Virus record (IMG/VR): IMGVR_UViG_3300050821_009856
Span: 22,248-86,247 of that record
Direction: 5' to 3' (one strand)
Source of the DNA: a virus
DNA length: 64,000 nucleotides
Below, piece by piece: positions 17,951 through 62,790 of this stretch. How positions within the stretch are numbered: position 1 is the stretch's first letter; the number at the start of each line of letters is the position of its first letter. The notes under the pieces were generated by a model. The model had not been told where the DNA came from and did not search any database. It saw nothing but the letters and a program-made list of their open reading frames with translations. The translations under genes and the position numbers were made by a program.

Positions 17951-18024
17951 TCCAGGGTGCCAGAGTCTGGTAATGGGCGTGACTGTTAATCACGAAGCCG
18001 GTGGTTCGAATCCACCCCCTGGAG
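17951..18024 (+). tRNA. tRNA-Asn (GUU), CCA not encoded
   Basis: acceptor TCCAGGG/CCCTGGA; anticodon stem CGTGA/TCACG with loop CTGTTAA; T arm GGTGG-TTCGAAT-CCACC; discriminator G. Confidence 0.93.
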
Positions 18025-32018: not shown

Positions 32019-32048
32019 TTGACTAAGATTGTCGCCCTGTGGTAGGGT
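32019..32048 (+). promoter_or_regulatory. sigma70-type promoter whose spacer contains an opposite-strand YAATCTT (32025-32031)
   Basis: TTGACT-18 nt-TAGGGT with TG extension; ATG lies 7 nt after the -10. Confidence 0.55.
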
Positions 32049-32054
32049 TTCTGC

Positions 32055-32564
32055 ATGAAAATCCTTCTACTTGCTGTGGTGCTGGCAGGATGCGGAATCC
32101 GGTTCAATCCCGCCGACATCGTGGAGCCCCTGGACGATTCGCCAGCCCCATTCTACTGTGACTCGCAGTACTTCGGGTCAGTTGAATCTGAGTCGCAGAT
32201 CGACTGCGGCGTCTTCGAGGCCGATGCCAAACTGGCCACCGACATGGTTGTCCGTTTGACCAAGGTTGACTCCAACTCCTACTATCGGATCATGCGACGA
32301 ACGACCGTCCATGTTCGCAGCGTAGTTGAGTGGGGCTCGGGCTCAGATACGGTGAAAGGGCAGGCGTGGTTCCAGCGAATCGACATCGGCAGTTCCGCAA
32401 CCGCCTTGGCGCACGAGACCCTTCACGTCTACAGTTTCTCCCATTGGGAGGTGAACTCTGGTGACCATCCGGGGTGGATTGAGCTGTGTCCGGACGACTC
32501 AGATTCCAGGTGCAACTACTACCTGGCGGCCAACACGTACGCAGACCAAGCCAAGACACCTTAG
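32055..32564 (+). CDS. lipoprotein with HExxH zinc-metalloprotease motif
   Basis: lipobox LAGC; LAHETLH..HPGW; paralogue of 56547-57059. Confidence 0.75.
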   Translation: MKILLLAVVLAGCGIRFNPADIVEPLDDSPAPFYCDSQYFGSVESESQIDCGVFEADAKLATDMVVRLTKVDSNSYYRIMRRTTVHVRSVVEWGSGSDTVKGQAWFQRIDIGSSATALAHETLHVYSFSHWEVNSGDHPGWIELCPDDSDSRCNYYLAANTYADQAKTP

Positions 32565-45139: not shown

Positions 45140-47758
45140 TCAGTTGGTATTGGTGTTGACGGTGAAGCTCAACGGGATCCGCTGATTCCAACCGGTGATA
45201 CCGATCTCCGTTGTAATGGTCGTCACTGGCGGGGCTACGACCACCGAAGCAGAGCTGATGTCCGTGAAGGTCGGATCGAATCTAAAGCCGGTCCGAAGGT
45301 TCTGTAGAATCTGGGCTGCCGTCATGTCGGCAACAGACTGCCCTGGCTGCGTGGCCAGGCCATACTCGGGGTGGAACAACGACGACCCCTGGATGGTCGA
45401 CAGGAAGACCCGAAGTCTCTGGATGATGTTCGTCAGACCAACAGCGTACCGGCTGTCGCCATCTGGCGTCATGAAGATGTCGTTGTCGTTCGTCAGTAGC
45501 AAATCCACCCCACCAACCTGGAGGAGCGGGTCGTAGGGGTTGATGTTCGGATTGCCTGGTGGCTGCCAGTCTGGCTGAGCCGGCTGCCCTTGGGAGGGCA
45601 GGTACAAGAGCTGTGTACTGTTGACGGTCTGCGGCAGGAACGAGAAAAGCGTTGCTCCCGCGGCGGTCGTGAACTGGTCGAGGTTCGGCGTACCGTCAAG
45701 GGTGAGAACGGAGACGGCGTCACTGAGCTTCCGGATAGCAACGACGTGTCTGACCTGTCTCGTGACGGTCTGGCTCTGCAGCCAAACCGACTGGTTGACG
45801 TTCAGATTCAAAGAGTCGCTGACCTGGATGTCAGAGCCGTGACCGTTCGTCAGCAGGGCCTCATTGAAGCCAACCTCGTCAACATACGGGGCTCGAAGGT
45901 TGTTCAGGGCTGCGATCTCAATCCACCGACTGGCATCCCCAAGGTACCGCGCCGCGACCATCTCCAGGGTGGAGCCAGTAGGGAAGGGGATAGCATACTT
46001 GCTGGAGGGAACGGTAAAGCTGATGCCAGATTGATTAGCCAGGGCAGCAACGTACTCCAGGGCTGTGATGCGGTTCGTGTCGTCGATCGCCGTGCTTGCG
46101 GCCAGGCGGCCAACCTCGATGACTGCCTGATTAAGGGCGAACATCAACTCCCAGTCGTCATCTGTGGGCGTCCTGGTGGTTGCCACGGGAGGCAGAAGCC
46201 CGTAGTTCGACGCGTACTTCGCTGAACCGGCGCCCACGAAGTTCGAATAGTCCACGATGAACTGCAGGAGCGTCTCGCGGATGGTCTCAAAGTCCAGACG
46301 GGTCATCTGGCGGATGTTCTGCTTGTACGTGATGATTTTCCGGTTGACGGTCGGCTGGATACTGAGCGAGCCCAGGGAGAAACTGCTGAACAGGTCGGCG
46401 TTGCTATCCGGATCCTCGAAAATTAACGTGATTGGGTCCGTCTCTCCAAAGCCCAGGTGGAATTGCCCTTGCAGTTGCTGTATCAGTTGCTGCTGGGTGA
46501 CAGCCAATGGTCCATTCTGGGTCGAGCCTACGCCACTGACAGCAGACAGGGCCCTCAGCTCGTCTCGAATGGCTTGAACCTCAGCGCTCAGTCTCGTGTT
46601 GTTCTGCAGCGGTTGGCCATTGAAGTTTCTGTTGCTGCCACTGGCTACGGCCAGGATGATGGGGATCTTCAGGTCCTGGAGGATGTTTACAGGTAGATCC
46701 AGAGCCGTAAATCCAAGGCCAAGGGCATCCTTACAGTAGGCGACGACCTCGCGGAGGGGCTGGAAGACCTTAGCGTCAACGTTGCTACTGAAGCCGACCA
46801 GGACTGACTTCAGGTTCTGAAGAGCAAGTCGAGCCGTTTGCAAATGCGCGAGGGCGCGTCCAAGCTGATTCGGATCCTTGATAGCCGGTAGGATGGTCGG
46901 AGGAATGCTCAGGCCATCGTCGAGTTCGTCGCCGCTGATTCGCCGCCACGCCTTGAAGGCCAGAGAGTACCTGTACTCCATGGGGGACTCGGCGCTCCGG
47001 CGCAACTCGAACATCTGAGGCGTCACCAGGTAGACGTCGTTATCCTTCCAGATGGCCAGGGCCAATCGATAATCGCGTCCATCCGGAGTTTTCTTGAGGT
47101 TGACGTACGCCTCCAGGAACTGCTTCAGCAACTGGAACTGGTAATAGCCAGTCGCGTGGCTAAACTCTCCCGTGACGTCTGAATCGGTGATGATGTTGTC
47201 AGGGACTCCGAAGACACCAGAGTTGACGGCAAACTGAGAGGCTGTGGAGATTATATTCGTGGCCTGTTTGGCCGTAGGATTGAGGGTGGCAGAGACACCC
47301 TGAACAATGCCAGCAAAGATGGCCCCGGCGACAGCTTGCGGAATCGCGCCACCGCTGAACGGAGAGCCGCGGATCGGCAGGTGTCCTGTAGTCCCCTGGA
47401 CGGTAATCATCCTGATTGGAGCAGCGTTGTGCTCTTCCACGATGCCACCGAGCGTAACCGTCGTGCTGATGGCGAAGGGGGTAGAAATGGTGAGTGCCTC
47501 AGGAGGGATTGGCAACGTGAAGACGCCAGACATGTCCCGGGCATATCCAGCCACACTGCCGGGTACGCGCTTCAGGAAAATGAGCTGATACGGAAAAGAC
47601 TTGTCCCATCGGGTCTCATCGATGACCGCCTGGGACCACATCGTGTCCTGGGTCGGTGCAGTCAAGGCTCCCGAGGTCGACGGAATCTGAGGGATACCGT
47701 TGGCCCGAGCCAGCTCCGTCACCGCGAAGCGGTTCGTCAGCTGTTGGATGGTCGCCAT
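45140..47758 (-). CDS. multidomain baseplate protein (tube initiator-like + LysM-like + gp25-like)
   Basis: FTLPIPPE; STLEMVAARYLGDASRWIEIAALNNL; GLTNIIQRL..T..GS..FHPEYG. Confidence 0.7.
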   Translation of the reverse strand: MATIQQLTNRFAVTELARANGIPQIPSTSGALTAPTQDTMWSQAVIDETRWDKSFPYQLIFLKRVPGSVAGYARDMSGVFTLPIPPEALTISTPFAISTTVTLGGIVEEHNAAPIRMITVQGTTGHLPIRGSPFSGGAIPQAVAGAIFAGIVQGVSATLNPTAKQATNIISTASQFAVNSGVFGVPDNIITDSDVTGEFSHATGYYQFQLLKQFLEAYVNLKKTPDGRDYRLALAIWKDNDVYLVTPQMFELRRSAESPMEYRYSLAFKAWRRISGDELDDGLSIPPTILPAIKDPNQLGRALAHLQTARLALQNLKSVLVGFSSNVDAKVFQPLREVVAYCKDALGLGFTALDLPVNILQDLKIPIILAVASGSNRNFNGQPLQNNTRLSAEVQAIRDELRALSAVSGVGSTQNGPLAVTQQQLIQQLQGQFHLGFGETDPITLIFEDPDSNADLFSSFSLGSLSIQPTVNRKIITYKQNIRQMTRLDFETIRETLLQFIVDYSNFVGAGSAKYASNYGLLPPVATTRTPTDDDWELMFALNQAVIEVGRLAASTAIDDTNRITALEYVAALANQSGISFTVPSSKYAIPFPTGSTLEMVAARYLGDASRWIEIAALNNLRAPYVDEVGFNEALLTNGHGSDIQVSDSLNLNVNQSVWLQSQTVTRQVRHVVAIRKLSDAVSVLTLDGTPNLDQFTTAAGATLFSFLPQTVNSTQLLYLPSQGQPAQPDWQPPGNPNINPYDPLLQVGGVDLLLTNDNDIFMTPDGDSRYAVGLTNIIQRLRVFLSTIQGSSLFHPEYGLATQPGQSVADMTAAQILQNLRTGFRFDPTFTDISSASVVVAPPVTTITTEIGITGWNQRIPLSFTVNTNTN

Positions 47759-51135: not shown

Positions 51136-53588
51136 TACTTTATCAGACGATGGGAACTAGCCGGTTGGGTTGTAGATGCCGATTCATTGGTTTTGTCCAT
51201 GGCCGGATGGTCTGGGGCCTGGCCGCCCAAAGCCTTGTTCAGTTTGTCTACAGTTCCAGTCAGAGCCATGAGCGATTTACCCAGGGCGTCGGCACTGGCG
51301 GCCGAGCTACCGAAGGCCTCAATGTTCTTGCCCTGATTGCCGAGAGTCTTGGCGAGATCTGTCAACCCGGGGCCAAGCGCCTTCAGGGAGTCTGTGATTT
51401 GCTGTTCGATTGCGCCCTGGCCTTCAGCCATGGCCTTCTCTGCACCGCCAAGTCCACCACCAAGCCCCTTGCGGCCCATCAGCTTCCGAGTCTCGATACC
51501 GGACAATCCAGCTTCGATGGCCATCATGCCGATGCCAGCCTCTTCGCCGCCGGCACCATGGCCTCCAGCGAATACTCCCAATCCTTCGATGGCTCGGCGC
51601 TTCTCCTGACCCGTAAGGCTGGCTAGATAGTCTGGCAGAGACTTTCCGGAAGCCTTCGCTTTGCGGATCTCCTCCGACATCATGTCGCCCTGGCCCTGAT
51701 CGACAAACCTGTCAAGCAAAGAGGTCCCTACAGCACCAAGCTGCCTACGGGCCATATCGGAAGTGACACCCATGTACTCGGCGCTAATGGTTCCTTTGCC
51801 GCGGGCCAAGTCTGTCAGCTGCTTGACGTTCATCCCAGACGCCAGGTAGTCCTGGGAATAGATACCACCGCCGGCATTAATGCCGATAGCCGACATGATG
51901 TTGCGACCCTGTTGGAACTGGTCGACCTGTCCTTGAGCGAATCGATTAAGGCCACCTACCCCGGCTTGGAACCGGGCGACCTGGTTCATGTCCCGGATGT
52001 CACCGAACTCTCTGAAGGCCCCCTGGAAGGCCGAGGAGAGACCGGTACCTGAAGTGACGCCCGTGACGTCGAACCCGCTACCGAGGATCCCCTGACCAAG
52101 CTGAAGGCCAGCAGCAGCATTCAGACCAGGTCCGCCCATCGCTGTCCAGGCATTGCCCCCAGATCTCGCCGCACCGGCAAGTACCTCGCCCAGGCCGCCA
52201 TAGCCAGCCGCCGAAGCGGCCATGATATTCCAGGCGTTCTTGCCGGCAAAGCCCTTGCCACCAAGGCCAATCAGGCTCCCGGCGGCACCCATGAACTGAC
52301 CGATATCGTAACCTCCAGCCCTCAGCTTGGCCGCCAGGTCGCCATATGGATCCATGGACTTTGAACCAGAGATGCCGCTACCTCCGACCATACCGAGGCG
52401 CTGGGCTGAAATTCTGGCACCCAAAGAACCAGAGAAGTCCTGAAGAGCCATTGAGGTCAACGGGTCGGCTTCAGCGTACTGACGACCGACATTAGCTAGG
52501 TTCCTCATCATCGAGGTCTGCTGAGCTACGGTTGTGAATGCGCCGAGGGTACCCCCGGCTTGGCCACCGCCGGCAGTGCCACCTGTGACGGCTCCAATAG
52601 TATTTTTTATTCCACCGAAAATACCCTGAAAGGCCTGCTCAACCTGGGCTCCGGTCCCGCTGGTTTGAGCAAGAATTGCCGCTCGGCCTTCGGCATCCGC
52701 CGCAGCCTTGCGTAGACCGAACATCAACGATAGGTCACCACTACGGAGTCTCTCCATCTCGCCGCGGACGGTCCTGCCGCGATCAGACATCAAAGACGAA
52801 CCACGACTCTCGGCCATGACTTCGTTGGTGATGGTCGCCGCACCTGCTACCGCCAGACCCCCGGCTCGGAGACCAAGTCTCATGCCTGGAGACAGCTGTC
52901 GAGCCTGGGTCAGGGGTGCGCCAAAGGGCCCACCGCTACCCTCCACCCAGTTCCCGGTATCGTCGTAGTAGCCAGCCCCTGCCCTAGTGGGGGTCAGCGT
53001 GTTCTGGATCGCCTTGTGCTGTTGCTCCAGGTTTACCAAGTTACTGGCTGCAGCCTGACGAGCAGAGACAGCGCCCCCCAATTGCTGCCCCATCGCCTGG
53101 TATGAGCCAGTCTGGGAGCCGATACCGATGGTCCTCTGAGCGTCTTGAAGGTCGGAGTACTTTGAGGTGAGACTGTCGATCTGTGAGTCGAGATCCTTGA
53201 TGGCCCGCCGTTGCTCTTGGGCGGCTCTCGTGACGACGTCCGACATCACTCGCATTGCCTCTCGACTGACACCCGAGAGGTTCTTCATCGCATTAGCGGA
53301 TTCAGTGAAGCTCGCCGCCAGGGCGTTGCCTGCGTTCCCGCCACCTGAGGTCACCATATTTTGTGGTGACTTCATCGCGGATACTAACTGCTGCTCGTTG
53401 GAGATCCGACCAGTCCCAACGAGGGTTGGTGCCGCCCCGCCAGAACCCGCGGTCAGGCCGCGGCTGGCCTGGACGAAGGACTGAAGGTCTCGGGTGACGT
53501 CGGCAATAGCCGTACGCATTCGCTGGAGAGCTTGCTCATCCAGCTTGAAGATGATGCGAATCTCCTTAGCCGACCCTTCACCCGCCAT
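51135..53588 (-). CDS. tail tape measure protein
   Basis: 817 aa, A/G/S/Q-rich helical; downstream of chaperone-like genes and upstream of hub. Confidence 0.75.
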   Translation of the reverse strand: MAGEGSAKEIRIIFKLDEQALQRMRTAIADVTRDLQSFVQASRGLTAGSGGAAPTLVGTGRISNEQQLVSAMKSPQNMVTSGGGNAGNALAASFTESANAMKNLSGVSREAMRVMSDVVTRAAQEQRRAIKDLDSQIDSLTSKYSDLQDAQRTIGIGSQTGSYQAMGQQLGGAVSARQAAASNLVNLEQQHKAIQNTLTPTRAGAGYYDDTGNWVEGSGGPFGAPLTQARQLSPGMRLGLRAGGLAVAGAATITNEVMAESRGSSLMSDRGRTVRGEMERLRSGDLSLMFGLRKAAADAEGRAAILAQTSGTGAQVEQAFQGIFGGIKNTIGAVTGGTAGGGQAGGTLGAFTTVAQQTSMMRNLANVGRQYAEADPLTSMALQDFSGSLGARISAQRLGMVGGSGISGSKSMDPYGDLAAKLRAGGYDIGQFMGAAGSLIGLGGKGFAGKNAWNIMAASAAGYGGLGEVLAGAARSGGNAWTAMGGPGLNAAAGLQLGQGILGSGFDVTGVTSGTGLSSAFQGAFREFGDIRDMNQVARFQAGVGGLNRFAQGQVDQFQQGRNIMSAIGINAGGGIYSQDYLASGMNVKQLTDLARGKGTISAEYMGVTSDMARRQLGAVGTSLLDRFVDQGQGDMMSEEIRKAKASGKSLPDYLASLTGQEKRRAIEGLGVFAGGHGAGGEEAGIGMMAIEAGLSGIETRKLMGRKGLGGGLGGAEKAMAEGQGAIEQQITDSLKALGPGLTDLAKTLGNQGKNIEAFGSSAASADALGKSLMALTGTVDKLNKALGGQAPDHPAMDKTNESASTTQPASSHRLIK

Positions 53589-53946
53589 GACTCTTCCTTA
53601 GATATTCGATTGCTTTGGAGAGTATTTCTATGCTGTCCTGGGCGCACCCGAGTAACTTGTTGCACCCAGCACACAGTAGACCGCGAACGACCCTAGTCTG
53701 ATGGTCATGGTCTACATTCAGCTGTGAAGACGAGTTCTTTCCGCCCGCCTCTACTGGATTGCCACAGATTGCACAGCAGCCACCTTGTTCGGCGTACAAT
53801 CGTTCATACTCGAACTTTGTGATGCCGTACGCTTTCTCTAGTTTTTGCCAACGAACGGCATCCTTATTTTCATGGTAGTACTGGTTCGCCCGAGCCAGAA
53901 GCTCCTCGCGGTGATCCCGATAGTATTGCTGCTGGTAGGCGGGCAT
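53578..53946 (-). CDS. endonuclease VII-family (likely free-standing homing) endonuclease
   Basis: YGIT..Y..QGGCCAICG..VDHDH..VRGLLCAGCNKLLG; AT-richer than flanks. Confidence 0.9.
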   Translation of the reverse strand: MPAYQQQYYRDHREELLARANQYYHENKDAVRWQKLEKAYGITKFEYERLYAEQGGCCAICGNPVEAGGKNSSSQLNVDHDHQTRVVRGLLCAGCNKLLGCAQDSIEILSKAIEYLRKSHGG

Positions 53947-53958
53947 GGGATTGCTCTA

Positions 53959-53965
53959 AAGATTG
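53959..53965 (-). promoter_or_regulatory. YAATCTT putative late promoter
   Basis: intergenic, upstream of the EndoVII and tape measure genes. Confidence 0.6.
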
Positions 53966-53968
53966 CCG

Positions 53969-54499
53969 TCAGCTGCTTCTGGGGGCGATCGGCACCTGAC
54001 CGAACTCCTCCAGCTTCCTTTCAAGCTCCTCCGGCGTCACGAACTTCATGTCGATCTCAGGCGGGAGGTCCTTAGGGAGCGTACTTGGAAGCGTAGTCTC
54101 AGGGATGAGGCCAGGAGGCGCGACCTGGATGTTAGCCATGGGCACCGCCGGGTTTCCAGGCCTAGATGCAGCTCTCTTGGCCTCTTCTTCCAGGAAGTGG
54201 TGGAACTCCTCGTTCGAGGCCGTCTGGGCATCCTCGGCACGGAGGCGGTCGGCTCGTTGGACCGCCGTCTCCAGAATCAGTTTCTTGATCTCGGCGATAT
54301 CTTCCGGATCTGCAGTCTCGAACTGGTATTCAAAGTAGTGCTGGAGAACGTTCAGGAGCGGGATGTCGTGTTCGACAACGTGTAGGGGCGTTGAAAAGGT
54401 CTGGCTGTACCAGCGCTGCATTCGGCTGATCCGGTAGCCGGCCGTCTCACATAGGACGTCCCTGAATGCCAGGACCTGAATGGCATCAACGAAGCTCAC
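53969..54499 (-). CDS. putative tail assembly chaperone (second part)
   Basis: RWYSQTFSTP motif; position before tape measure; probable GTG start at 54499. Confidence 0.5.
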   Translation of the reverse strand: MSFVDAIQVLAFRDVLCETAGYRISRMQRWYSQTFSTPLHVVEHDIPLLNVLQHYFEYQFETADPEDIAEIKKLILETAVQRADRLRAEDAQTASNEEFHHFLEEEAKRAASRPGNPAVPMANIQVAPPGLIPETTLPSTLPKDLPPEIDMKFVTPEELERKLEEFGQVPIAPRSS

Positions 54500-54737
54500 G
54501 GTGGTCACGCACGGGCCGACTGAGTACCGGCAGAGCCTGACCGAGAACGGCATCCAGATGAAGGGGGAGTAACTCGATGCGGATTCGCGGCATGTTGGCT
54601 GCCTTGCCTACGAATGTCACCTTGGTTACCCCAATCAGCCTTTTGCCATCGAGCTTCACGTAGTTGTTGTCAGGCGAGATCGGCGACCTACTGAGCCGAA
54701 TCTCGATGGTGTGCCCTCTCGATTTCTTCTTGGCCAT
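54486..54737 (-). CDS. small basic hypothetical protein
   Basis: starts 1 nt after the upstream stop. Confidence 0.55.
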   Translation of the reverse strand: MAKKKSRGHTIEIRLSRSPISPDNNYVKLDGKRLIGVTKVTFVGKAANMPRIRIELLPLHLDAVLGQALPVLSRPVRDHRELR

Positions 54738-54738
54738 G

Positions 54739-55149
54739 TTACGCCTTCGCCATCACATTGACCGCGGCGATTTCCTTCTTGGCCGCTTCAGCAGCATCGG
54801 CCAGTTCCTTCCGGAAGTCGTTCTCGACCTTCTCGACCTGGGCGTAGACCGTCTTGACCACGTTATCGTCGAAGAGGTTCATGCCGCCGTTGTTGTCCCT
54901 CCACCATGACGGAGATCCGCCCTCACCAGGCACGATTCGCATCTGACATTCAGCGAACAGCGTGGCCTGGCTAAAGGCCCGCGGAGTGGCATCCGATGGC
55001 CGGGGCCCGAGAATCTCGCGACGGATCCGATCCACTTCCATCTGTTCTCCATGAGAGAGGAGTGGCTTGACCTTGAAGGTACCGGCGAACTCGGTTCCGG
55101 AGGTATCTCCGGTGACCTTGACGATGACTGAGCGGGGCGTGACATCCAT
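54739..55149 (-). CDS. putative tail assembly chaperone
   Basis: GTFKVK..LS..PSWW..D pattern; first gene of the tail operon. Confidence 0.55.
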   Translation of the reverse strand: MDVTPRSVIVKVTGDTSGTEFAGTFKVKPLLSHGEQMEVDRIRREILGPRPSDATPRAFSQATLFAECQMRIVPGEGGSPSWWRDNNGGMNLFDDNVVKTVYAQVEKVENDFRKELADAAEAAKKEIAAVNVMAKA

Positions 55150-55214
55150 GGCGTTACCTGTAGGGGATGGCGTGAGGATCCCCGGATGGGATCGACTCGG
55201 GCCAACGAGACCCC

Positions 55215-55243
55215 TTGAAGATTAAGTCCGGTCCTGCTATGGT
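55215..55243 (+). promoter_or_regulatory. sigma70-type promoter for the RNA ligase operon
   Basis: TTGAAG-17 nt-TATGGT with TG extension; predicted +1 at about 55250. Confidence 0.65.
55218..55224 (-). promoter_or_regulatory. YAATCTT putative late promoter heading the tail operon
   Basis: in the divergent intergenic region; overlaps the -35 of the rightward promoter. Confidence 0.6.
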
Positions 55244-55249
55244 ACTTAA

Positions 55250-55308
55250 GCCTGGGTGGCGGTAGGGTCGCGGACCTTACGCTGCTGGTTTGAGTCCAGC
55301 CCCGGGCA
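55250..55308 (+). ncRNA. D-arm-less tRNA-like RNA element
   Basis: 7-bp acceptor GCCTGGG/CCCGGGC + A; T arm GCTGG-TTTGAGT-CCAGC; central hairpin GTAGGG-TCGCGGA-CCTTAC. Confidence 0.65.
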
Positions 55309-55320
55309 TGGAGGTAGTAC

Positions 55321-56550
55321 ATGCCGTCACTGCACGTTCAAGACTTCTTGCGGTTCCACCAGAAGACCAACCCGCTCGTGGATCCGGTAGAGGCTCTCGG
55401 CAAGCTCTACGCTATCAAGGCCAAGGCGCACGGGAAGTACCCGAATCTGGTACAGCTGAAGTACGACCAGATCGACAGCCCAATGGGCAACCCCATCGTC
55501 CAAGAGTGTCGAGGCCTAATCCTCGACCGGGACAAGAATTGGGCAATCATCGCCCACCCCTTCCATAAGTTCTTCAACAGCGAGGAGGGGCACGCCGCGA
55601 AAATCGACTGGTCAACCGCCAGGGTCCAAGAGAAGGTCGACGGCTCCCTCATCATCATGTACCACCATGACGGTAAGTGGCACGTGGCGACCAGCGGGAC
55701 CCCGGATGCGTCAGGCGCCATCAACGGCCTGCCGATGACCTTCGAAAAGCTGTTCTGGGAGACGGTCTTCATGGAGGGTAGTAAGTCCCACTACTGGGCA
55801 CACGAAGACCCAAATTCTATCTCCCCCGACATCACCTTCATGTGGGAGCTGACTTCCCCATACAACCGGATCGTCGTCCAGCACCCCAAACCCAAGCTCA
55901 CACTCATCGGCATGCGGAATCGAGTAACTGGTGAAGAATACGATGTAGCTACCAGCGCACCTCCAGGCGCTCCCATCGTCAAGCACTTCGACCTGACCAG
56001 CCTGGAGGCAATCGGCAATAGCTTCTCCACCATCTCGGCCCTGAACCAGGAGGGCTACGTGGTGGTCGACGCGAGCTTCAACCGTGTGAAGATCAAACAT
56101 CCTCAGTACGTCGCCCTGCACCACCTGAAGGGCGAGGGCTCAACGCCGAGCACCAAGGGCGCCCTGGCAGTAGTCCGGCAGGGTGAGATGGAAGAGTTGC
56201 TCAGCTACTGGCCGGAATGGGCTCCGATCTTCACCGAGGTCCGTGAGCGCTATGAGAATCTGGTGACCGAGCTGGAGACGGCCTATCAGGACGTCGTCAA
56301 GAAGGTGCCGCCTGTACCGCCCGGGGTCGTTCAGACTGACAAGCGAGCCCAGGGGTTGTTCCGGAAGGAATTCGCCACGCTGGCGACCAAGACCCGGGTG
56401 CCCGCGGTCATGTTCTCCCTGCTTGACGGCAAGGCCAAGTCCGTGCGAGAGTTCCTGGTGGGCATGCAGATCGACCACCTGGCTTCCGTGCTGAAGCTCG
56501 ACGAAATCAAGATCGACCCACAGGTCATTTTCGGGAAGGTGACGCCATGA
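55321..56550 (+). CDS. ATP-dependent RNA ligase (T4 Rnl1-like)
   Basis: ECRGLI, KFFN, motif I EKVDGS, WEL, EGYVV, RVKIK; GGAGG ribosome-binding site. Confidence 0.92.
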   Translation: MPSLHVQDFLRFHQKTNPLVDPVEALGKLYAIKAKAHGKYPNLVQLKYDQIDSPMGNPIVQECRGLILDRDKNWAIIAHPFHKFFNSEEGHAAKIDWSTARVQEKVDGSLIIMYHHDGKWHVATSGTPDASGAINGLPMTFEKLFWETVFMEGSKSHYWAHEDPNSISPDITFMWELTSPYNRIVVQHPKPKLTLIGMRNRVTGEEYDVATSAPPGAPIVKHFDLTSLEAIGNSFSTISALNQEGYVVVDASFNRVKIKHPQYVALHHLKGEGSTPSTKGALAVVRQGEMEELLSYWPEWAPIFTEVRERYENLVTELETAYQDVVKKVPPVPPGVVQTDKRAQGLFRKEFATLATKTRVPAVMFSLLDGKAKSVREFLVGMQIDHLASVLKLDEIKIDPQVIFGKVTP

Positions 56551-57059
56551 GACTGCTGGTTGCGCTGCTCCTCCTCAGCGCCTGCCGGCCGGTCGTTCCG
56601 GACAACGAGGTGCCCATCCATGTACGACTCGGCGGTGCCGAGTGCATGGACCGCATGTGCCACGTCCGAGCGGACAATTTGACGTCCGAGGAGTGCCTCG
56701 AATTCCAGCAGTTCGTCCCGGCGTACGTTGCCGCCCTGGCTGCCCGAACAGATCTGCCGACAGAACGGATCTGCGGGATGTTGGCGGGCCACGACTTGAT
56801 TGTGGTCGATGCCGACGATCACGGCGCCTTCAAGCTTCAGAACAAGTGGGTCAACGGGGCCACCGATTGCGGAAGCCACCTGACCTTCCTCGGCTTGCCG
56901 CCTGGAGCCCCGTACAGTGCCGCCGCCCATGAGCTGACCCATGTCGTCGACTGTCGGTTGCGACATGTGACGACCTCTACTCAGCACGTGGGCTGGACAA
57001 CCAACGGATACTGTGCTGCAATCCACGACGTCAGTACCTTACCTGACGACTGCAAATAG
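56547..57059 (+). CDS. lipoprotein with HExxH motif
   Basis: lipobox LSAC; AAHELTH..HVGW. Confidence 0.75.
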   Translation: MRLLVALLLLSACRPVVPDNEVPIHVRLGGAECMDRMCHVRADNLTSEECLEFQQFVPAYVAALAARTDLPTERICGMLAGHDLIVVDADDHGAFKLQNKWVNGATDCGSHLTFLGLPPGAPYSAAAHELTHVVDCRLRHVTTSTQHVGWTTNGYCAAIHDVSTLPDDCK

Positions 57060-57067
57060 GAGACCGC

Positions 57068-57547
57068 GTGCCCGCTAAGAAGCCCTGCATTAAGTGCAAC
57101 ACCCCGAACTGGCCGATGCACATGAAGGCCGGCGTCTGCAGGGATTGCCAGAAGGCTGACGGCAAAACCCTCGCTCAGGCTCTGTACGCCATTCAGGTGC
57201 GGACGGAGATGCTCTGTCAGCAGGAACGCAACGAGTACGGCGGCAAGGTTCTCTCCGAGAAAACTATCGAACGCATCCAGACCATCCCGGCCTGCAAGTC
57301 TGTCGAGGAGGCAGAGAAGCTCTCGCAAGAGGCGGTGCGCTGGAGCCAGGTCCACTTCCTGTCCGAGTGGGCCAAGGGGCGGATCCGCGGCAAGGTGACA
57401 GCTGAACGTCTGGAGAAGGAGGCCAAGGAGGCCGACAACCTCGCCACCTTCCTGGCCAAGAAGGGGCTGGCCGATCAGGCTCAACAGCAACGCGAGCGAG
57501 CCGCTACACTCCGCAGTGAACTGCAGTCCATGAGAAAGAAGGCCTGA
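57068..57547 (+). CDS. hypothetical protein with N-terminal Zn finger and coiled coil
   Basis: CIKC..CRDC; AGGAG before GTG. Confidence 0.7.
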   Translation: MPAKKPCIKCNTPNWPMHMKAGVCRDCQKADGKTLAQALYAIQVRTEMLCQQERNEYGGKVLSEKTIERIQTIPACKSVEEAEKLSQEAVRWSQVHFLSEWAKGRIRGKVTAERLEKEAKEADNLATFLAKKGLADQAQQQRERAATLRSELQSMRKKA

Positions 57548-57548
57548 G

Positions 57549-57758
57549 ATGGCGACCTGGAAGATTTCCACGAACAAGGACGGCTACATCGTCAACCACA
57601 AGAACAGCAGCGGCCACATCGAGTTCCTTGGTTCCAGGCCGCCGGAGACACCCCTTCAGGACCTGCTCGAATGGGTGGCTTCTGAAATGGACCAAGAGGA
57701 CCTGGTAACTGTCAATGGCCAGCCGGTCCTGCAGAAGTTCAGCGCCGTCGTCGAGTAG
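57549..57758 (+). CDS. hypothetical protein
   Basis: operon packing. Confidence 0.6.
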   Translation: MATWKISTNKDGYIVNHKNSSGHIEFLGSRPPETPLQDLLEWVASEMDQEDLVTVNGQPVLQKFSAVVE

Positions 57759-57761
57759 GCG

Positions 57762-58064
57762 GTGAAGCTCGACGACCACCTCATGTACGGCCTCGTTGCC
57801 CTGAATGGCGCCGATGCCGGACTGACAGCCGCGGGTGCGGCTCTGGTGAACTCCGGCATCGAAGGCAATCCGGCAATGCGCTTGGGGCTGACTCTGAACC
57901 CCGTTCTGTTCTTGGCGTTGAAGCTCGGGGTACTAGCCTTTGCGGCCTCCTATCACCACAGGAATCCGGACCGCCGCCGAGCCTACGTCCTAGCGGGCCT
58001 GGTGGCGGTCTACAGCGTCGTAGTGGTCAGGAATCTGCTGATCTTCATGGGGATCTGGAGGTGA
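57762..58064 (+). CDS. small membrane protein (DUF5658-like)
   Basis: N..D..LT..G.E.NP.M..K pattern with 3 hydrophobic helices. Confidence 0.65.
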   Translation: MKLDDHLMYGLVALNGADAGLTAAGAALVNSGIEGNPAMRLGLTLNPVLFLALKLGVLAFAASYHHRNPDRRRAYVLAGLVAVYSVVVVRNLLIFMGIWR

Positions 58065-58549
58065 TAGAGATCTGGGCAGACGGCAGTAGCAGCGGCAAGT
58101 CCAACCTCCCTGGTGGCTGGGCTTTCGTCATCATGCAAGACGACAGGGTCTTGTCCGCCAATTACGGCGGCGAACCATCGACAACCAACAACGCCATGGA
58201 ACTCGAAGGCGCCCGCCAAGGCCTTCTGGCCTGGTCACGAATGGTAGATCGGTACCCCGACGAGAAGCAGGTCACCCTTATTTCGGACAGCCAGACCACG
58301 TTGGGACTTGCTACCGGGCAGTACACGCCCTCGAAGAACGTAGAGCGGGCCACGGAGCTGCGGTGGCTGTACCACCGATACTGCACAGGCATCCGCTGGG
58401 TCCGCGGCCACGTTGGCATCCTGGCGAACGAAAGGTGTGACCGCCTGGCCAAGAAGGGACGCAAGGAACAGCAAGCGCTATTATCGAAACGTGACGACAC
58501 CAACGGAAGAGACCCAAGTGACGGTCCAGAAAATCAGACTGCACCCTGA
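58061..58549 (+). CDS. rnhA: ribonuclease HI
   Basis: WADGS..PGGWA, TTNNAMELE, SDS, WVRGH, NERCDRLA. Confidence 0.92.
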   Translation: MIEIWADGSSSGKSNLPGGWAFVIMQDDRVLSANYGGEPSTTNNAMELEGARQGLLAWSRMVDRYPDEKQVTLISDSQTTLGLATGQYTPSKNVERATELRWLYHRYCTGIRWVRGHVGILANERCDRLAKKGRKEQQALLSKRDDTNGRDPSDGPENQTAP

Positions 58550-58967
58550 CCCGGCGACTATCGGTTCGCCGCAGGAGCGGGCCATCATGGAGGTCCTTCT
58601 GGAACTCTGTGACGAGAACCTTGACGTCGAAACGACGGCAGATGAGGTGCGAGAGCTGACGGGTGTCTACTGGGAGGCTTTCAAAGCTCAGCCTTTCCTC
58701 GGACTCCGGGAGCTACTTGAAGCCGACACCGGTATGGCGGCATTCTTCGACATGTTCAAGGAGCAGGTTCTGCCGATCAGGCGTGTTGACGAGCGCCACC
58801 AGAAGACCCTCTCGGTGTATAGGCAGTTCATCGAGGTGGCCAAGACGTACCCCCAGACTCCTCACGTCCAGGCGCTCCTGAATCGAGCCCACAACGTCAT
58901 CCTCTTCAACCTCAACTACAAGCTAATGGTGCAGCGTCCGAAGGCAGCCAAGACATGGATCCAGTGA
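58491..58967 (+). CDS. hypothetical protein (start uncertain)
   Basis: phage-like codon use; fills the gap. Confidence 0.55.
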   Translation: MTTPTEETQVTVQKIRLHPDPATIGSPQERAIMEVLLELCDENLDVETTADEVRELTGVYWEAFKAQPFLGLRELLEADTGMAAFFDMFKEQVLPIRRVDERHQKTLSVYRQFIEVAKTYPQTPHVQALLNRAHNVILFNLNYKLMVQRPKAAKTWIQ

Positions 58968-59239: not shown

Positions 59240-59438
59240 TCCGGTGTTCATCACCAGAGAAGACGCCATCGGGCTCCTGATTGACAAGGGCCTGGCTTTC
59301 AATAATGACAAGCTGGAGCAGCTTCTGGAGAATGCCTTCGGTGACGAGCTGACGACCATGCGCGTCGTGAGTAGCTACAGCGATGAGGATCGTGATTACA
59401 ACTACCCGAACCGAAAATGGAGGTTCCACGATGAATGA
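59226..59438 (+). CDS. hypothetical protein
   Basis: GGAGG before ATG 59226. Confidence 0.55.
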   Translation: MGCASPVFITREDAIGLLIDKGLAFNNDKLEQLLENAFGDELTTMRVVSSYSDEDRDYNYPNRKWRFHDE

Positions 59439-60216
59439 GGACTCGTTGGGCGACCGCATGAAGAGCTACGAGGACGTCTTCCGACAGGTCCTCCCGAACC
59501 AGCTTCCCGTCATTCTTCGGGTTGATGGTCGGGCCTTCCACAGCTACACCCGCGGTTGCGAGAAGCCGTTCGACCGGAGCTTGATGGAAGCCATGGATCA
59601 GGTGGCCCTTGATCTTTGCTCAGAGATCAACAACGCTGTCATGGCGTACGTGCAGTCCGACGAGATCAGTGTTCTGGTCGTCCAGAAGTCCAAGGACAGC
59701 CAGCCCTGGTTCGGCGGCAACCTGCAAAAGATGTGCAGCGTGGCCGCCTCCAAGGCTGCGGTCCGGATGACCATGGAGTCGCCGAACGTCTTTCCTGTGA
59801 GTGAGGCCGATTTCAGCAGCGGGACCGCGGACGTTTTCCGTGAGGCCTGCTTCGATGCCCGGGCGTTCGTTCTGCCTCCGCATGAGGTTCAGAACTATTT
59901 CGTGTGGAGGCAGCAGGACTGGGTGAGGAATTCCATTTCCATGCTCACCAGGGCGCACTACAGCCACAAGGAAATGGACGGCAAGTCCCAGTCGGACATG
60001 CACGAGATGCTGTACCAGAAGAATGTCAATTGGGCAGACCTGAGCCCTGACTTGAAGAACGGGCGGGTGGTAGTGAAGCGTGAAGTCCCCATCCAAATTC
60101 CTGCGGGCCCGAAGAGAGGTGAGATCGTCACGCGCTCGAAATGGGGCGTTGAGTTTGCACCGATCTTCACAGCCAATCGGAACTTCATCGAGCAGCTGAT
60201 GTGGCGAGATGCCTAG
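59431..60216 (+). CDS. Thg1-like 3'-5' RNA polymerase / tRNA(His) guanylyltransferase
   Basis: RMKSYE, RVDGRAFH, QSDEIS, FDAR, YFVWRQQD..RNS. Confidence 0.95.
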   Translation: MNEDSLGDRMKSYEDVFRQVLPNQLPVILRVDGRAFHSYTRGCEKPFDRSLMEAMDQVALDLCSEINNAVMAYVQSDEISVLVVQKSKDSQPWFGGNLQKMCSVAASKAAVRMTMESPNVFPVSEADFSSGTADVFREACFDARAFVLPPHEVQNYFVWRQQDWVRNSISMLTRAHYSHKEMDGKSQSDMHEMLYQKNVNWADLSPDLKNGRVVVKREVPIQIPAGPKRGEIVTRSKWGVEFAPIFTANRNFIEQLMWRDA

Positions 60217-60316
60217 TACCTATGACGTCAAGAACGTCAGGCTCTTCTTCAACGGTCAAGAGATCAAGGGCTTTAAGGACATAAGCTATAGTTACCAAAA
60301 GGGAAAGAACCGATGA
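60209..60316 (+). CDS. 35-aa peptide MPSTYDVKNVRLFFNGQEIKGFKDISYSYQKGKNR (absent from ORF track)
   Basis: fills the Thg1-vWA gap exactly; ATGA overlap with the vWA start. Confidence 0.45.
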   Translation: MPSTYDVKNVRLFFNGQEIKGFKDISYSYQKGKNR

Positions 60317-61342
60317 ACACCAAGAAGCTTATCAACCGATTCGCCATCGTCCTGGATGCTAGCGGTAGCATGCTTGGCATCGCCCGGCCCACGGTGGACG
60401 CCTTCAACGCCACCTGTGCCGCCATTCGTGATGGCAGCAAGAGCGAGGGGCAGACCTCCACTGTGACATATCTGACGTTCAGCGAGCGCCACTCAGACGT
60501 CAACGTCAAGTTCCAGGACTCCAACGTGGATCTGCTGACTACTGTCGGCTACAGCGATTACTACCCGGCCGGCTCCGGGACGGCCCTCTGGGATGCTGTC
60601 GGCAAGACCATCGAAACGCTGGAGGCCTTGCCCTTTAGTGACAGCAAGGACGTTGCCAACGTCGTGTTCATCATCACCGATGGCGACGAGAATGCGAGCC
60701 GCCAGTACACAGCTGCCACCCTGAAGGAGCTGATCCATAGCGTTGAAGCGACGAACCACTGGACTCTGGCGTTCTTGCTCCCCCGTGGGGCCAGTGCTGC
60801 CTTTTGTCGGAAATTCGGGATCTCCGAGGGCAACGTCCGGGAGTGGGACCAGACGGTCCGCGGCGTTCAGGAGGCCCAGAAGTCGATGAGCCTTGGTGTA
60901 GCCTCGTTCCTCCGCGGGCGGACCAAGGGTGTCACGTCGACCCGCGGCTTCTTCGTGACGGACCTGAGTAAGGTCTCGGCCACTCAACTCAAGAAGACCC
61001 TCGACGACATCCGCGACAACGTCACGACCATGGCCGTGGACAAGAAAATGACCATCAAGGACTTCGTGGAGAAGAAGACCCGGGGGGACCTACGTCAAGG
61101 GCAATGGCTTCTATCAGCTGACCAAGGACGAGACGATTCAGCCCTACAAGCAGATTCTCCTGATGGAGAAGGGCAAGAGCGCAGTCTACGGTGGATCCGA
61201 CGCCCGGCAGATTCTGGGGCTGCCAGATAACTTGAGCGTCAAGGTGCGGCCGGGCAATCACGCAAACTTCGACATCTTCGTTCAGTCAACGTCCGTGAAC
61301 CGTAAGCTGGTCCGCGGCACCAAGCTCCTCTATCTGCGTTGA
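60313..61342 (+). CDS. vWA-domain protein interrupted by a +1 frameshift at a G6 run
   Basis: MIDAS DASGS, T(ALWDA), ITDG.EN.S; the +1 frame from 61088 gives TYVKGNGFYQLTK..VQSTSVNRKLVRGTKLLYLR to TGA 61342. Confidence 0.8.
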
Positions 61343-61367
61343 CACTGGCGCAGAAGGGCGCTACAGT
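61339..61367 (+). promoter_or_regulatory. sigma70-type promoter, probably giving a leaderless mRNA
   Basis: TTGACA-17 nt-TACAGT; ATG 61374 lies 7 nt after the -10; no Shine-Dalgarno. Confidence 0.75.
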
Positions 61368-61373
61368 ACCTAC

Positions 61374-61715
61374 ATGAAGCTCTGGCTCGACGATGAGCGT
61401 GAAGCGCCCGTGAGGTTCACGTGCTTCAGTACGACCTGTGACTGGACTGTCGCCAGGAATGCCCAAGACGCCATTACCTTCCTGAAGACTGGGCTAGTGA
61501 CGGAGATCAGTTTCGACCATGACCTTGGTCCTCGGGAGCACTACGGTGATGGTTACGACGTTGCCAAGTGGATCGAGGAGGCCGCCTTTGAGGGCCGCAT
61601 CCCGAGGATAATCTGGCGAGTCCACAGTGGGAATGCTGTTGGTCGTTCACAGATCTACATGGCCATGAAAAACGCCAATGACTTTTGGACCAGAAATGAG
61701 GCGGCACGTGACTGA
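61374..61715 (+). CDS. cyclic-phosphate-processing receiver-domain protein
   Basis: KLWLDDER, ISFDHDLG, GYDVAKWIEE, VHSGNAVG. Confidence 0.8.
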   Translation: MKLWLDDEREAPVRFTCFSTTCDWTVARNAQDAITFLKTGLVTEISFDHDLGPREHYGDGYDVAKWIEEAAFEGRIPRIIWRVHSGNAVGRSQIYMAMKNANDFWTRNEAARD

Positions 61716-62790
61716 CTTCGAATTCCCCAAGAGCAACCTGGACTGGCTCCAGAAGCGGACCATCTACCTGACCCGCCACGGATCGCACGCCTACGGGACG
61801 AACACACCGGCCTCCGACGTGGACATCCGCGGCGTGGCCGTTGCTCCTCGGGAGTACTACCTCGGGTACAGCAAGCGCTTCGAGCAAGCCGAGTTCAAGC
61901 AGCCGGTGGACATGGTCGTCTACGAACTGCAGAAGTTCTTCCGTTTAGCCGCGGACTGCAACCCGAACTGCCTGGAGGTCATCTACACGCACCAGCGGGA
62001 CCACCTGCTGAACACCGTGTACGGGAACATGCTGCTGGAGAAACGTGACCTGTTCCTCAGCAAGAAGGCTCGCCACACCTTCAGTGGCTATGCCATGTCC
62101 CAGCTAAAGCGTTTGCGCGCCCACAGCCGGTGGTTGCGTGATCCACCGAAGGGCGAACCAAACCGCAAGGACTTTGACTTGCCGCCGGCCACGTTGATCC
62201 CCAAGAGCCAGCTGGAGGCTGTTCTGGCTGACGTCAGGAAGGTCACTGAGGCCTGGGACATTGCCATTCCAGGGGCCGACGAGGCATCGATCATCGACCT
62301 GAAGAAGAAGTACGCTGTGGCTCTGGCTGAGCAAAAAATCACGGCCGACAACCAGTGGGAGGCGGCCTCTCGCAAGCTCGGGGTGGACGAGAACTTCATC
62401 TACCTGATGGGCCAGGAACGGAAGTTTCAGACGGCCGTCGTGGAGTGGCGGAAGTTCCAGACCTGGAAGGCAGAGCGCAATGAGGCCCGGGCTGCCCTGG
62501 AGGCCAAGCACGGGTACGACACCAAGCACGGCATGCACCTGGTGCGGCTGCTCCGGATGGGGCGCGAGGTCCTGGCCGGCGAGGGCGTAAAGGTCTTCCG
62601 GCCGGATCGAGAGGAGCTGCTGGAGATTCGGAATGGGGCCTGGAGCTTCGACTACCTTATGGAGTGGGCCGAGAAGGCTGACAAGGACTTGGATGCAGCC
62701 TACGCCGCCTCCAGGCTGCCGCGTACGCCTGACCAGGAGAAGCTTGACCAGCTGTGCCAGCACGTCATTGAGCTGGCGGTGGGGCTATAA
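61708..62790 (+). CDS. Pol-beta-family nucleotidyltransferase (RlaP/YcgL-like)
   Basis: GSHAYG..SDVDIRG, NPN..E, FSGYAMSQ, YDTKHGMHLVRLL, L.IRNG. Confidence 0.88.
   Translation: MTDFEFPKSNLDWLQKRTIYLTRHGSHAYGTNTPASDVDIRGVAVAPREYYLGYSKRFEQAEFKQPVDMVVYELQKFFRLAADCNPNCLEVIYTHQRDHLLNTVYGNMLLEKRDLFLSKKARHTFSGYAMSQLKRLRAHSRWLRDPPKGEPNRKDFDLPPATLIPKSQLEAVLADVRKVTEAWDIAIPGADEASIIDLKKKYAVALAEQKITADNQWEAASRKLGVDENFIYLMGQERKFQTAVVEWRKFQTWKAERNEARAALEAKHGYDTKHGMHLVRLLRMGREVLAGEGVKVFRPDREELLEIRNGAWSFDYLMEWAEKADKDLDAAYAASRLPRTPDQEKLDQLCQHVIELAVGL

What the first reader, a model, noticed from the sequence alone, without database searches (positions are those of the whole stretch)
55215..56550. D-arm-less tRNA mimic at the exact 5' end of the RNA ligase mRNA
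Seen: 55250-55308 folds into a tRNA top half, with a 7-bp acceptor stem (GCCTGGG/CCCGGGC, one U:G), discriminator A and a 5-bp T stem with a 7-nt TTTGAGT loop. A TG linker leads into one central hairpin (GTAGGG-TCGCGGA-CCTTAC, extendable by 2 bp) with GCG in the anticodon position. There is no D arm and no CCA. The first base falls at the predicted +1 of a TTGAAG-17-TATGGT promoter, and the last base is 1 nt before the GGAGG of the Rnl1-like ligase. Known: T4 Rnl1 repairs tRNA cut by anticodon nucleases such as PrrC. Inference: the element could be a decoy for host anticodon nucleases, a sensor whose cleavage or RNase Z processing switches ligase translation, or a dedicated substrate of the phage repair enzymes. 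A degenerated tRNA gene is the dull alternative.
Basis: partly seen in the sequence, partly recalled or inferred. Interest (0 to 1): 0.85.

Follow-up and report, generated by a model that had tools for sequence, protein, structure and literature searches.

The report
Shortened leucine-tRNA relic heading RNA-repair operon
A 59-base piece of a leucine tRNA gene, stripped of its anticodon part but still perfectly folded, sits exactly between a predicted promoter and the first gene of a soil phage's RNA-repair gene block; it is real and tRNA-derived, but nothing yet shows it is more than a truncated tRNA gene carried along as an mRNA leader.

Summary
A strict acceptor plus T-arm descriptor hits only this element and true tRNAs in about 1.2 Mb, so it is not chance.

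It derives from a class II tRNA-Leu. Its first 13 nt match two bacterial tRNA-Leu(UAA) genes at 12/13 and its last 26 nt at 25/26. The middle hairpin is more likely a remodelled D arm or the long variable arm than an anticodon arm: it has C at position 33 and the loop closes to a GCG triloop.

The promoter and Shine-Dalgarno (SD) geometry is as described. Two leaderless genes in the same phage show the same spacing from the -10 box to +1.

Downstream lie an Rnl1-like ligase, RNase H, a Thg1-like protein, vWA, cREC, RlaP and NUDIX.

No copy exists in the accessible relatives (ligase 48% identical or less), in 87 related loci or in metagenome scans. Other soil runs hold the identical phage with no variants, and no RNA run was listed. 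The closest ligase homologues (60-65%) could not be fetched.

Best reading: an internally deleted tRNA-Leu gene transcribed as the operon leader and probably cut off by tRNA-processing enzymes. Decoy or sensor roles remain untested.

The parts
55215..55243 (+). Predicted sigma-70/sigma-A-type promoter: TTGAAG (55215-55220), 17-nt spacer, TGc-TATGGT (extended -10, hexamer 55238-55243)
   Evidence: Read from the sequence and found by a regex scan. It matches 8/12, so it falls below the 9/12 threshold of the consensus scanner, which reports no promoter here. Two leaderless genes of the same phage share the geometry (-10, then 6 nt, then +1): 32019 TTGACT-18-TAGGGT with ATG at 32055, and 61339 TTGACA-17-TACAGT with ATG at 61374.
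55250..55308 (+). 59-nt tRNA-Leu-derived tRNA-like element: acceptor 5' strand 55250-55256, U8 at 55257, bulged 11-bp hairpin 55258-55283, T arm 55284-55300, acceptor 3' strand 55301-55307, discriminator A 55308
   Evidence: Fold. Descriptor specificity. Identity to bacterial tRNA-Leu ends. A custom tRNA-Leu covariance model scores it 36.4 bits, in the range that full-length non-Leu tRNAs reach with the same model.
55310..55314 (+). Shine-Dalgarno GGAGG of the ligase gene, 1 nt after the discriminator
   Evidence: Sequence. It is unpaired or only weakly paired in the 111-nt fold.
55321..56550 (+). Rnl1-family RNA ligase, 409 aa
   Evidence: PF09511 at 67.5 bits. phrog_562 at 3e-49. TIGR02308 at 66.5 bits, below its 242-bit equivalog cut-off. 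T4 Rnl1 structure 2C5U at E 6e-11 over residues 57-277. Motif I lysine K105 within EK.DGS is invariant in 16 homologues.
58061..58549 (+). RNase H
   Evidence: PF00075 at 61 bits.
59383..60216 (+). Thg1-like 3'-5' nucleotidyltransferase
   Evidence: PF04446 at 101 bits. phrog_4717 at 1e-82.
60313..61230 (+). vWA-domain protein
   Evidence: PF13519 at 25 bits and PF00092 at 20.6 bits, both just under their cut-offs.
61374..61715 (+). cREC_REC (cyclic-phosphate-processing receiver domain) protein, leaderless behind its own promoter
   Evidence: PF20274 at 86 bits. Promoter geometry.
61678..62790 (+). RlaP (RNA-ligase-associated Pol-beta nucleotidyltransferase)
   Evidence: PF10127 at 90 bits.
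54739..55149 (-). First gene of the divergent minus-strand block; it fixes the intergenic region at 55150-55320
   Evidence: Coding-type GC1/2/3 of 0.62/0.43/0.73. The overlapping ORF 54879-55322(-) has GC2 0.64 and an R/S/P-rich product, so it is non-coding.

Best explanation
What it is (high confidence): an internally deleted derivative of a class II tRNA-Leu gene. It keeps the acceptor stem, U8/G9, the start of the D arm and the whole T arm. The roughly 45 nt that normally form the D loop, anticodon arm and variable arm are replaced by one perfect hairpin. It cannot decode. How it most likely works (inferred): the host RNA polymerase starts at its first base from the TTGAAG-17-TATGGT promoter, so the element is the first 59 nt of the early mRNA for the Rnl1-like ligase and the RNA-repair genes behind it. 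The acceptor/T-arm minihelix is the unit that RNase Z, RNase P and the CCA-adding enzyme recognise (established tRNA biology). The likely fate is therefore a cut after discriminator A55308. That would release a stable tRNA-like RNA of about 59 nt, possibly CCA-tailed, and leave an mRNA that begins 1 nt before its SD. I read it as a truncated tRNA gene tolerated or co-opted as a leader and processing module, not as a shown decoy or sensor.
For: Origin: the T arm plus 3' acceptor (25 nt, Y at position 56) occurs in only two of about 185,000 species genomes, both as tRNA-Leu(UAA). The element matches them at 12/13 nt at the 5' end and 25/26 at the 3' end. The two differences are C4>U, which still pairs as G.U, and C56>U, in the T loop. 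All 12 IMG/VR (public viral contig collection) hits to the same end pattern are tRNA-Leu genes. No decoding part: ARAGORN and Rfam give no tRNA call. Transcription: the element lies in the only intergenic gap (171 bp) before an operon that follows a divergent junction. The promoter geometry equals that of two leaderless genes of the same phage. The phage embeds its one intact tRNA (Asn, 17951-18024) tightly among co-oriented genes, so a tRNA packed against a gene is normal here. Singleton status: it is absent from the two complete 169-kb relatives and three fragments, from 80 ligase loci and from 7 Thg1-like loci. In the nearest IMG/VR relative the ligase is preceded by a tightly packed ORF.
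Against: All 23 base pairs are intact and the junction is clean. Most alignments to tRNA-Leu need three indels, including a 13-nt insertion that creates the hairpin, which is more order than plain decay predicts. The start at the predicted +1 and the end 1 nt before the SD look arranged. The genes behind it act on tRNA ends. The promoter is only 8/12 and the consensus scanner does not call it. Processing is inferred, not observed.
Confidence: 0.5

Rival explanations
1. A selected tRNA mimic. Either (a) it acts in cis as an operator: a tRNA-binding repair enzyme, such as the ligase itself, binds the tRNA-like leader next to the SD and represses translation until damaged tRNAs titrate it away, as ThrRS does on the thrS leader. 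Or (b) it acts in trans as a decoy or competitor for host tRNA-targeting nucleases, or as a partner RNA of the repair enzymes.
For: All helices are perfect despite heavy remodelling. The first base falls at the predicted +1 and the last base 1 nt before the SD. It heads a block with Rnl1-like ligase, Thg1-like protein, cREC, RlaP and NUDIX. RlaP acts on damaged tRNA 3' ends (preprint 10.64898/2025.12.29.696909). Defence nucleases that cut tRNA variable loops or amputate anticodon arms exist (PMC13096335; PMC12445682). tRNA-like partner RNAs of RNA-repair proteins are known (PMC7824862).
Against: It is a single instance. None was found near 80 ligase loci or 7 Thg1-like loci, nor in the complete relatives. 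The SD and AUG are not occluded by alternative pairing. The anticodon-like loop lacks U33 and collapses to a triloop, so it is a poor bait for anticodon nucleases. No TROVE/Ro gene lies in the 86 kb.
Confidence: 0.25
2. Inert DNA remnant: a fragment of host tRNA-Leu picked up by illegitimate recombination or left from an att-type site. It is not transcribed as a discrete tRNA-like 5' end, because the real start lies elsewhere, and it has no effect.
For: Its ends match bacterial tRNA-Leu far better than the tRNA-Leu genes of related phages. tRNA-Leu genes sit at the ends of many IMG/VR contigs, as expected of prophage attachment sites. The consensus scanner calls no promoter here.
Against: attP copies normally hold only the 3' part of a tRNA, whereas here the 5' acceptor strand and D-arm start are also present. 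No tyrosine-integrase match lies in the 86 kb, though only about half the genome is held. The operon needs a promoter within 55150-55310, and any start upstream of the SD at 55310 transcribes at least the 3' part of the element; a start at or before 55250 transcribes all of it.
Confidence: 0.12
3. A working unconventional tRNA: D-arm-less tRNA-Arg(GCG), or the 75-nt tRNA-Arg(GCG) that ARAGORN calls at a relaxed threshold (55235-55309).
For: ARAGORN at -ps80 reports a 75-nt tRNA-Arg(gcg) that uses the same hairpin as its anticodon arm.
Against: That fold has two acceptor mismatches and a 3-bp D stem, and its 5' end overlaps the -10 box. Position 33 is C. Default ARAGORN, its mitochondrial modes and Rfam do not call it. 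The 5' 13 nt are tRNA-Leu-like, not Arg-like.
Confidence: 0.02

Closest known systems
Phage tRNA genes and tRNA pseudogenes co-transcribed with protein genes (for example the tRNA clusters of T4-like and large soil phages)
   Same: It is tRNA-derived, packed against co-oriented genes with almost no spacer, and presumably released by host tRNA-processing enzymes. The same phage embeds tRNA-Asn in this way.
   Different: It lacks any anticodon arm, is 59 nt long, starts at a predicted +1 rather than behind a leader, and is not called by tRNA finders.
E. coli thrS mRNA operator (a tRNA-Thr mimic next to the SD, bound by ThrRS); from my own knowledge
   Same: A tRNA-like fold lies immediately 5' of the SD of a gene whose product binds tRNA.
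   Different: The thrS operator mimics anticodon arms, whereas this element mimics the acceptor/T-arm half. No binding or regulation is shown here.
YrlA/Y RNAs with tRNA-like modules beside Ro60 (Rsr) and RtcB RNA-repair genes (context in PMC7824862)
   Same: A tRNA-like non-coding RNA is encoded next to RNA-repair genes, and a vWA-domain protein is present in the block.
   Different: No TROVE/Ro gene in the 86 kb held. No Rfam Y-RNA or YrlA match. There is no Ro-binding helix, and the element is much smaller.
Armless tRNAs of metazoan mitochondria
   Same: A short tRNA with one arm missing and a degenerate T loop.
   Different: Those keep a normal anticodon arm and decode. ARAGORN's mitochondrial mode does not call this fold.
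tmRNA tRNA-like domain
   Same: An acceptor stem plus T arm without an anticodon arm.
   Different: No tag reading frame or pseudoknots, and ARAGORN finds no tmRNA.

Membership tests
Canonical tRNA (Rfam RF00005 / ARAGORN) | 7-bp acceptor stem plus discriminator | tested here: met
   7/7 pairs including one U:G, with A73.
Canonical tRNA (Rfam RF00005 / ARAGORN) | T arm: 5-bp stem, 7-nt loop T54 T55 C56 R57 A58, G53-C61 | tested here: inconclusive
   The stem, G53-C61, T54, T55, G57 and A58 are present, but position 56 is T instead of the near-invariant C.
Canonical tRNA (Rfam RF00005 / ARAGORN) | D arm and anticodon arm with U33 and a 7-nt loop | tested here: not met
   Only one hairpin lies between the acceptor and T arms. 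Position 33 would be C, and the loop closes to a triloop.
Canonical tRNA (Rfam RF00005 / ARAGORN) | Score above the detector threshold | tested here: not met
   ARAGORN default finds none. Rfam gathering finds only tRNA-Asn. The best clan hit is tRNA-Sec at 14.4 bits against a 47-bit cut-off.
tRNA-Leu (class II), as ancestor | 5' signature GCCYGGGTGGCGG, A73, and a T arm/acceptor matching tRNA-Leu genes | tested here: met
   12/13 and 25/26 identity to two bacterial tRNA-Leu(UAA) genes. All 12 IMG/VR genes with these ends are tRNA-Leu. Caveat: the custom tRNA-Leu model's 36.4 bits is not isotype-specific, because tRNA-Asn scores 38.8.
YrlA / Y RNA-Ro60 system | Adjacent TROVE (Ro60/Rsr) gene and a Y-RNA fold | tested here: not met
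   PF05731 is absent from the 86-kb record, with controls positive. No Rfam hit. Only about 53% of the genome is held.
attP-type tRNA fragment of a temperate phage | Only the 3' part of the tRNA, next to an integrase | tested here: not met
   The 5' acceptor strand and D-arm start are present. No PF00589 match in the 86 kb. Serine integrases and the missing half of the genome were not tested.
tRNA-mimic translational operator (thrS type) | Binding by the encoded protein, with SD occlusion | not testable with these tools
   Only the adjacency to the SD (1 nt) is shown.
T4 RnlA (Rnl1) equivalog, for the ligase | NCBIfam TIGR02308 above its equivalog cut-off | tested here: not met
   66.5 bits against a 242-bit cut-off. 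It is a family-level member only (PF09511 at 67.5 bits against 28.3).

The most novel reading that the evidence does not exclude
The element is a purpose-built tRNA-Leu 'top-half' mimic, made at the very 5' end of the RNA-repair operon transcript. It would couple expression of the phage's tRNA-repair enzymes to the state of the tRNA pool, by binding the ligase or another repair enzyme beside the SD. Alternatively, once cut off, it would soak up host tRNA-targeting nucleases. Either way it would be a phage counterpart of thrS-type mimicry or of Y-RNA/Ro partnerships, in a new minimal format.
Probability: 0.2. Interest if true: 0.8.

Novelty: new variant of a known kind. Interest (0 to 1): 0.4.

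Why it matters
If it is only a truncated tRNA gene, it is a tidy example of how phage tRNA genes erode yet stay foldable and processable. It also warns that tRNA finders miss such remnants. If it is selected, it would be the first case of a minimal tRNA mimic placed at +1 of a phage tRNA-repair operon. That would give a direct handle on how phages regulate or protect their repair response to host tRNA nucleases. The two readings can be separated with one retrieval of three related contigs, or with a simple RNA-end mapping experiment.

Tried and rejected
The contigs of the nearest ligase homologues (P0002, P0003, P0004/P0121) could not be read, and the listing of cluster members gave no accession numbers. 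P0121 is only the full-length form of P0004, not an upstream extension.
- Direct DNA or protein searches for close relatives gave nothing useful. GenBank phages gave no DNA match, and their best protein identity was 36%. IMG/VR scans with the single ligase protein and with an exact 25-mer both returned nothing.
- The single metagenome scan, set up for short forms, returned 54 hits. All are ordinary tRNA-Leu(GAG) genes in which GGGTGGCG lies in the anticodon/variable region, apart from one gene with an NN gap. These are false positives.
- Sequencing runs: no RNA holder was listed. Contigs of four soil runs from other samples carry the identical sequence with no variant, so no covariation test was possible.
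- A single-sequence covariance model of the element found only itself and, weakly, tRNAs.
- The hairpin is not a repeated motif in the window, and there is no decayed tRNA array around it.
- There is no CCA-adding enzyme gene in the 86 kb.
- Considered and dropped: an ORF across the region, a terminator (no T run) and a tmRNA.

Full report
**Setting**

The window is the last 64 kb of an 86,247-bp IMG/VR (public viral contig collection) virus record that CheckV estimates at about 53% complete. GC content is about 58%. The same sequence, without a single difference, occurs at low depth in soil metagenomes of other samples and studies.

Its nearest accessible kin are two complete phages of about 169 kb and a few fragments. 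These share a DnaE-type polymerase at 45-51% identity. One of the complete phages (G001) shares the ligase at 48%, and the other (G002) shares the Thg1-like protein at 51%. No cultured phage is close.

**The observation**

- The 59 nt at 55250-55308 fold into a three-way junction:
  - a 7-bp acceptor stem with one U:G pair;
  - U8;
  - an 11-bp hairpin with one bulged G and a GCG triloop;
  - directly after it, a 5-bp T stem with the loop TTTGAGT;
  - the acceptor 3' strand and an unpaired A.
- The fold has -33.3 kcal/mol and z -2.7. It is unchanged when the first 50 nt of the ligase mRNA are added.
- A strict descriptor (TTxxAxx loop, G53-C61, 5/5 T stem, 7/7 acceptor) hits only tRNA-Asn and this element in the window on both strands.
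- In about 540 kb of related loci the same descriptor hits only true tRNAs. Chance is therefore excluded.
ARAGORN finds nothing. Rfam at gathering level finds only tRNA-Asn. The best sub-threshold hit is tRNA-Sec at 14.4 bits.

**Origin**

The T arm plus 3' acceptor (25 nt, allowing C or T at position 56) was scanned against one genome for each of about 185,000 species. It matched two genomes, both at tRNA-Leu(UAA) genes.

- Against these genes the element is identical at 12 of its first 13 nt and 25 of its last 26 nt.
- The two differences are C4>U, which keeps a wobble pair, and C56>U, in the T loop.
- All 12 IMG/VR genes with the same end pattern are tRNA-Leu.
- A73 and the GUGGCGG start are tRNA-Leu features.
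- A custom tRNA-Leu covariance model scores the element 36.4 bits even though 35 model positions are missing. The model is not isotype-specific, because the phage tRNA-Asn scores 38.8. The isotype call therefore rests on the end identities.

**What the hairpin is**

The anticodon-arm reading is the weakest of the three. Position 33 would be C, and positions 32/38 and 33/37 pair, leaving a triloop.

- D-arm reading. Most pairwise alignments to tRNA-Leu genes keep CGGTAG of the D loop and ACGC of the D-stem 3' strand. They insert 13 nt between these, which creates the hairpin, and they delete the whole anticodon and variable arms.
- Variable-arm reading. Infernal instead places the hairpin in the long variable-arm position and deletes the D and anticodon arms.
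- I cannot decide between these two. The first needs about three indels, the second needs one.
- The name 'D-arm-less' is therefore not secure. 'Anticodon-less tRNA-Leu derivative' is.

**Position**

ORF 54739-55149(-) has coding-type composition. The ORF that would cross the element (54879-55322, minus strand) does not. So 55150-55320 is a 171-bp divergent intergenic region.

- Left of it, on the minus strand, lie a baseplate or tail-related protein (45140-47758), unassigned large ORFs and an endonuclease VII gene.
- Right of it, on the plus strand, lies the early block.
- The promoter TTGAAG-17-TGcTATGGT matches the consensus at only 8/12, and the consensus scanner does not call it.
- However, two genes of this phage start with an ATG exactly 6 nt after a stronger promoter of the same type: 32055 behind TTGACT-18-TAGGGT, and 61374 behind TTGACA-17-TACAGT.
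- In these two genes +1 is the seventh base after the -10 hexamer. At our promoter the seventh base is G55250, the first base of the acceptor stem.
- Leaderless starts and TANNNT -10 boxes suggest an actinobacterial host. That is an inference from general knowledge.

**Context**

The operon behind the element contains the following genes.

- An Rnl1-family ligase (PF09511). It is not a T4 RnlA equivalog. Its nearest solved structure is T4 Rnl1, over the nucleotidyltransferase domain only.
- Small ORFs, including a DUF5658 protein.
- RNase H.
- A Thg1-like enzyme.
- A vWA-domain protein.
- A cREC_REC protein with its own leaderless promoter.
- RlaP.
- A NUDIX protein.

RlaP adds one or two nucleotides to damaged RNA 3' ends and is needed to restore heavily damaged tRNA in vitro (preprint 10.64898/2025.12.29.696909). 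Such repair sets are described for large phages (PMC7824862). No TROVE/Ro gene, tyrosine integrase or CCA-adding enzyme lies in the 86 kb held.

**Conservation**

This is the weak point.

- The element is absent from both complete relatives and three fragments.
- It is absent from within 3 kb of 80 ligase homologues.
- It is absent from within 6 kb of 7 Thg1-like homologues.
- In the closest IMG/VR relative the ligase follows a small ORF with almost no gap.
- Other soil runs carry the identical phage, so they offer no variants.
- Covariation therefore could not be tested in either direction.

**Interpretation**

The origin from tRNA-Leu is well supported. Two things argue for an ordinary truncated tRNA gene that is still transcribed as the operon's leader. 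First, the element is a singleton among accessible relatives. Second, this phage also packs its intact tRNA-Asn tightly between genes.

The acceptor/T-arm minihelix is the recognition unit of RNase Z, RNase P and the CCA-adding enzyme (established knowledge). I therefore expect a cut after A55308. That cut would separate a small tRNA-like RNA from an mRNA that starts 1 nt before its SD.

Three things argue for selection:

- all 23 pairs survive after substantial remodelling;
- the element fits exactly between +1 and the SD;
- the genes behind it work on tRNA ends.

A thrS-style operator for a tRNA-binding repair enzyme, or a decoy released by processing, would fit these facts. Neither has any direct support. 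The SD is not masked by the element, and the loop is a poor anticodon bait.

| Reading | Weight |
|---|---|
| Transcribed truncated tRNA-Leu leader | 0.50 |
| Selected mimic | 0.25 |
| Inert remnant | 0.12 |
| Working odd tRNA | 0.02 |

**Verdict**

The element is a new variant of a known kind: a tRNA-derived element in a phage operon. Its interest is moderate and would rise sharply if the 60-65% relatives keep the element.

Noticed in passing
L110/L114 (G002) and L111/L113 (G001); L105:2631-2705(-); L107:8069-8142(+): Related 169-kb phages and two other IMG/VR contigs carry 74-75-nt tRNA-Leu genes (anticodons GAG, CAA, CAG, TAA) without the long variable arm that bacterial tRNA-Leu normally has. 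They score 47-67 bits with the tRNA-Leu model. Loss of a whole arm from tRNA-Leu thus seems to recur in phages.
   Followed up: partly
window 32019-32057 and 61339-61376: Two strong promoters (TTGACT-18-TAGGGT and TTGACA-17-TACAGT) are each followed, after exactly 6 nt, by an ATG: ORFs 32055-32564 and 61374-61715 (cREC_REC). These look like leaderless mRNAs and hint at an actinobacterial host.
   Followed up: partly
window 17951-18024: The only intact tRNA (Asn, GTT) lies 8 nt after the stop of the upstream gene (17942). It is overlapped by the predicted start of the next ORF (17973), and its D arm looks unusual.
   Followed up: no
window 53500-58600: Contigs from soil metagenome runs of other samples and studies (2018 and 2025) match this phage with zero differences over every piece laid. 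One clone appears to be widespread in soils.
   Followed up: no
L099, L101, L103, L104, L109 (positions about 42-123) and others: Many IMG/VR contigs begin or end at a tRNA-Leu gene with the same acceptor and 5' signature. This is the pattern expected if prophages integrate into this tRNA-Leu.
   Followed up: no
L188:6868-7773: In one IMG/VR contig the Thg1-like gene is followed directly by a run of four tRNA-sized elements. At least one has an odd anticodon region.
   Followed up: no
window 53578-53946 (-): An endonuclease VII gene (PF02945, 85 bits) lies among minus-strand genes just left of the divergent junction.
   Followed up: no
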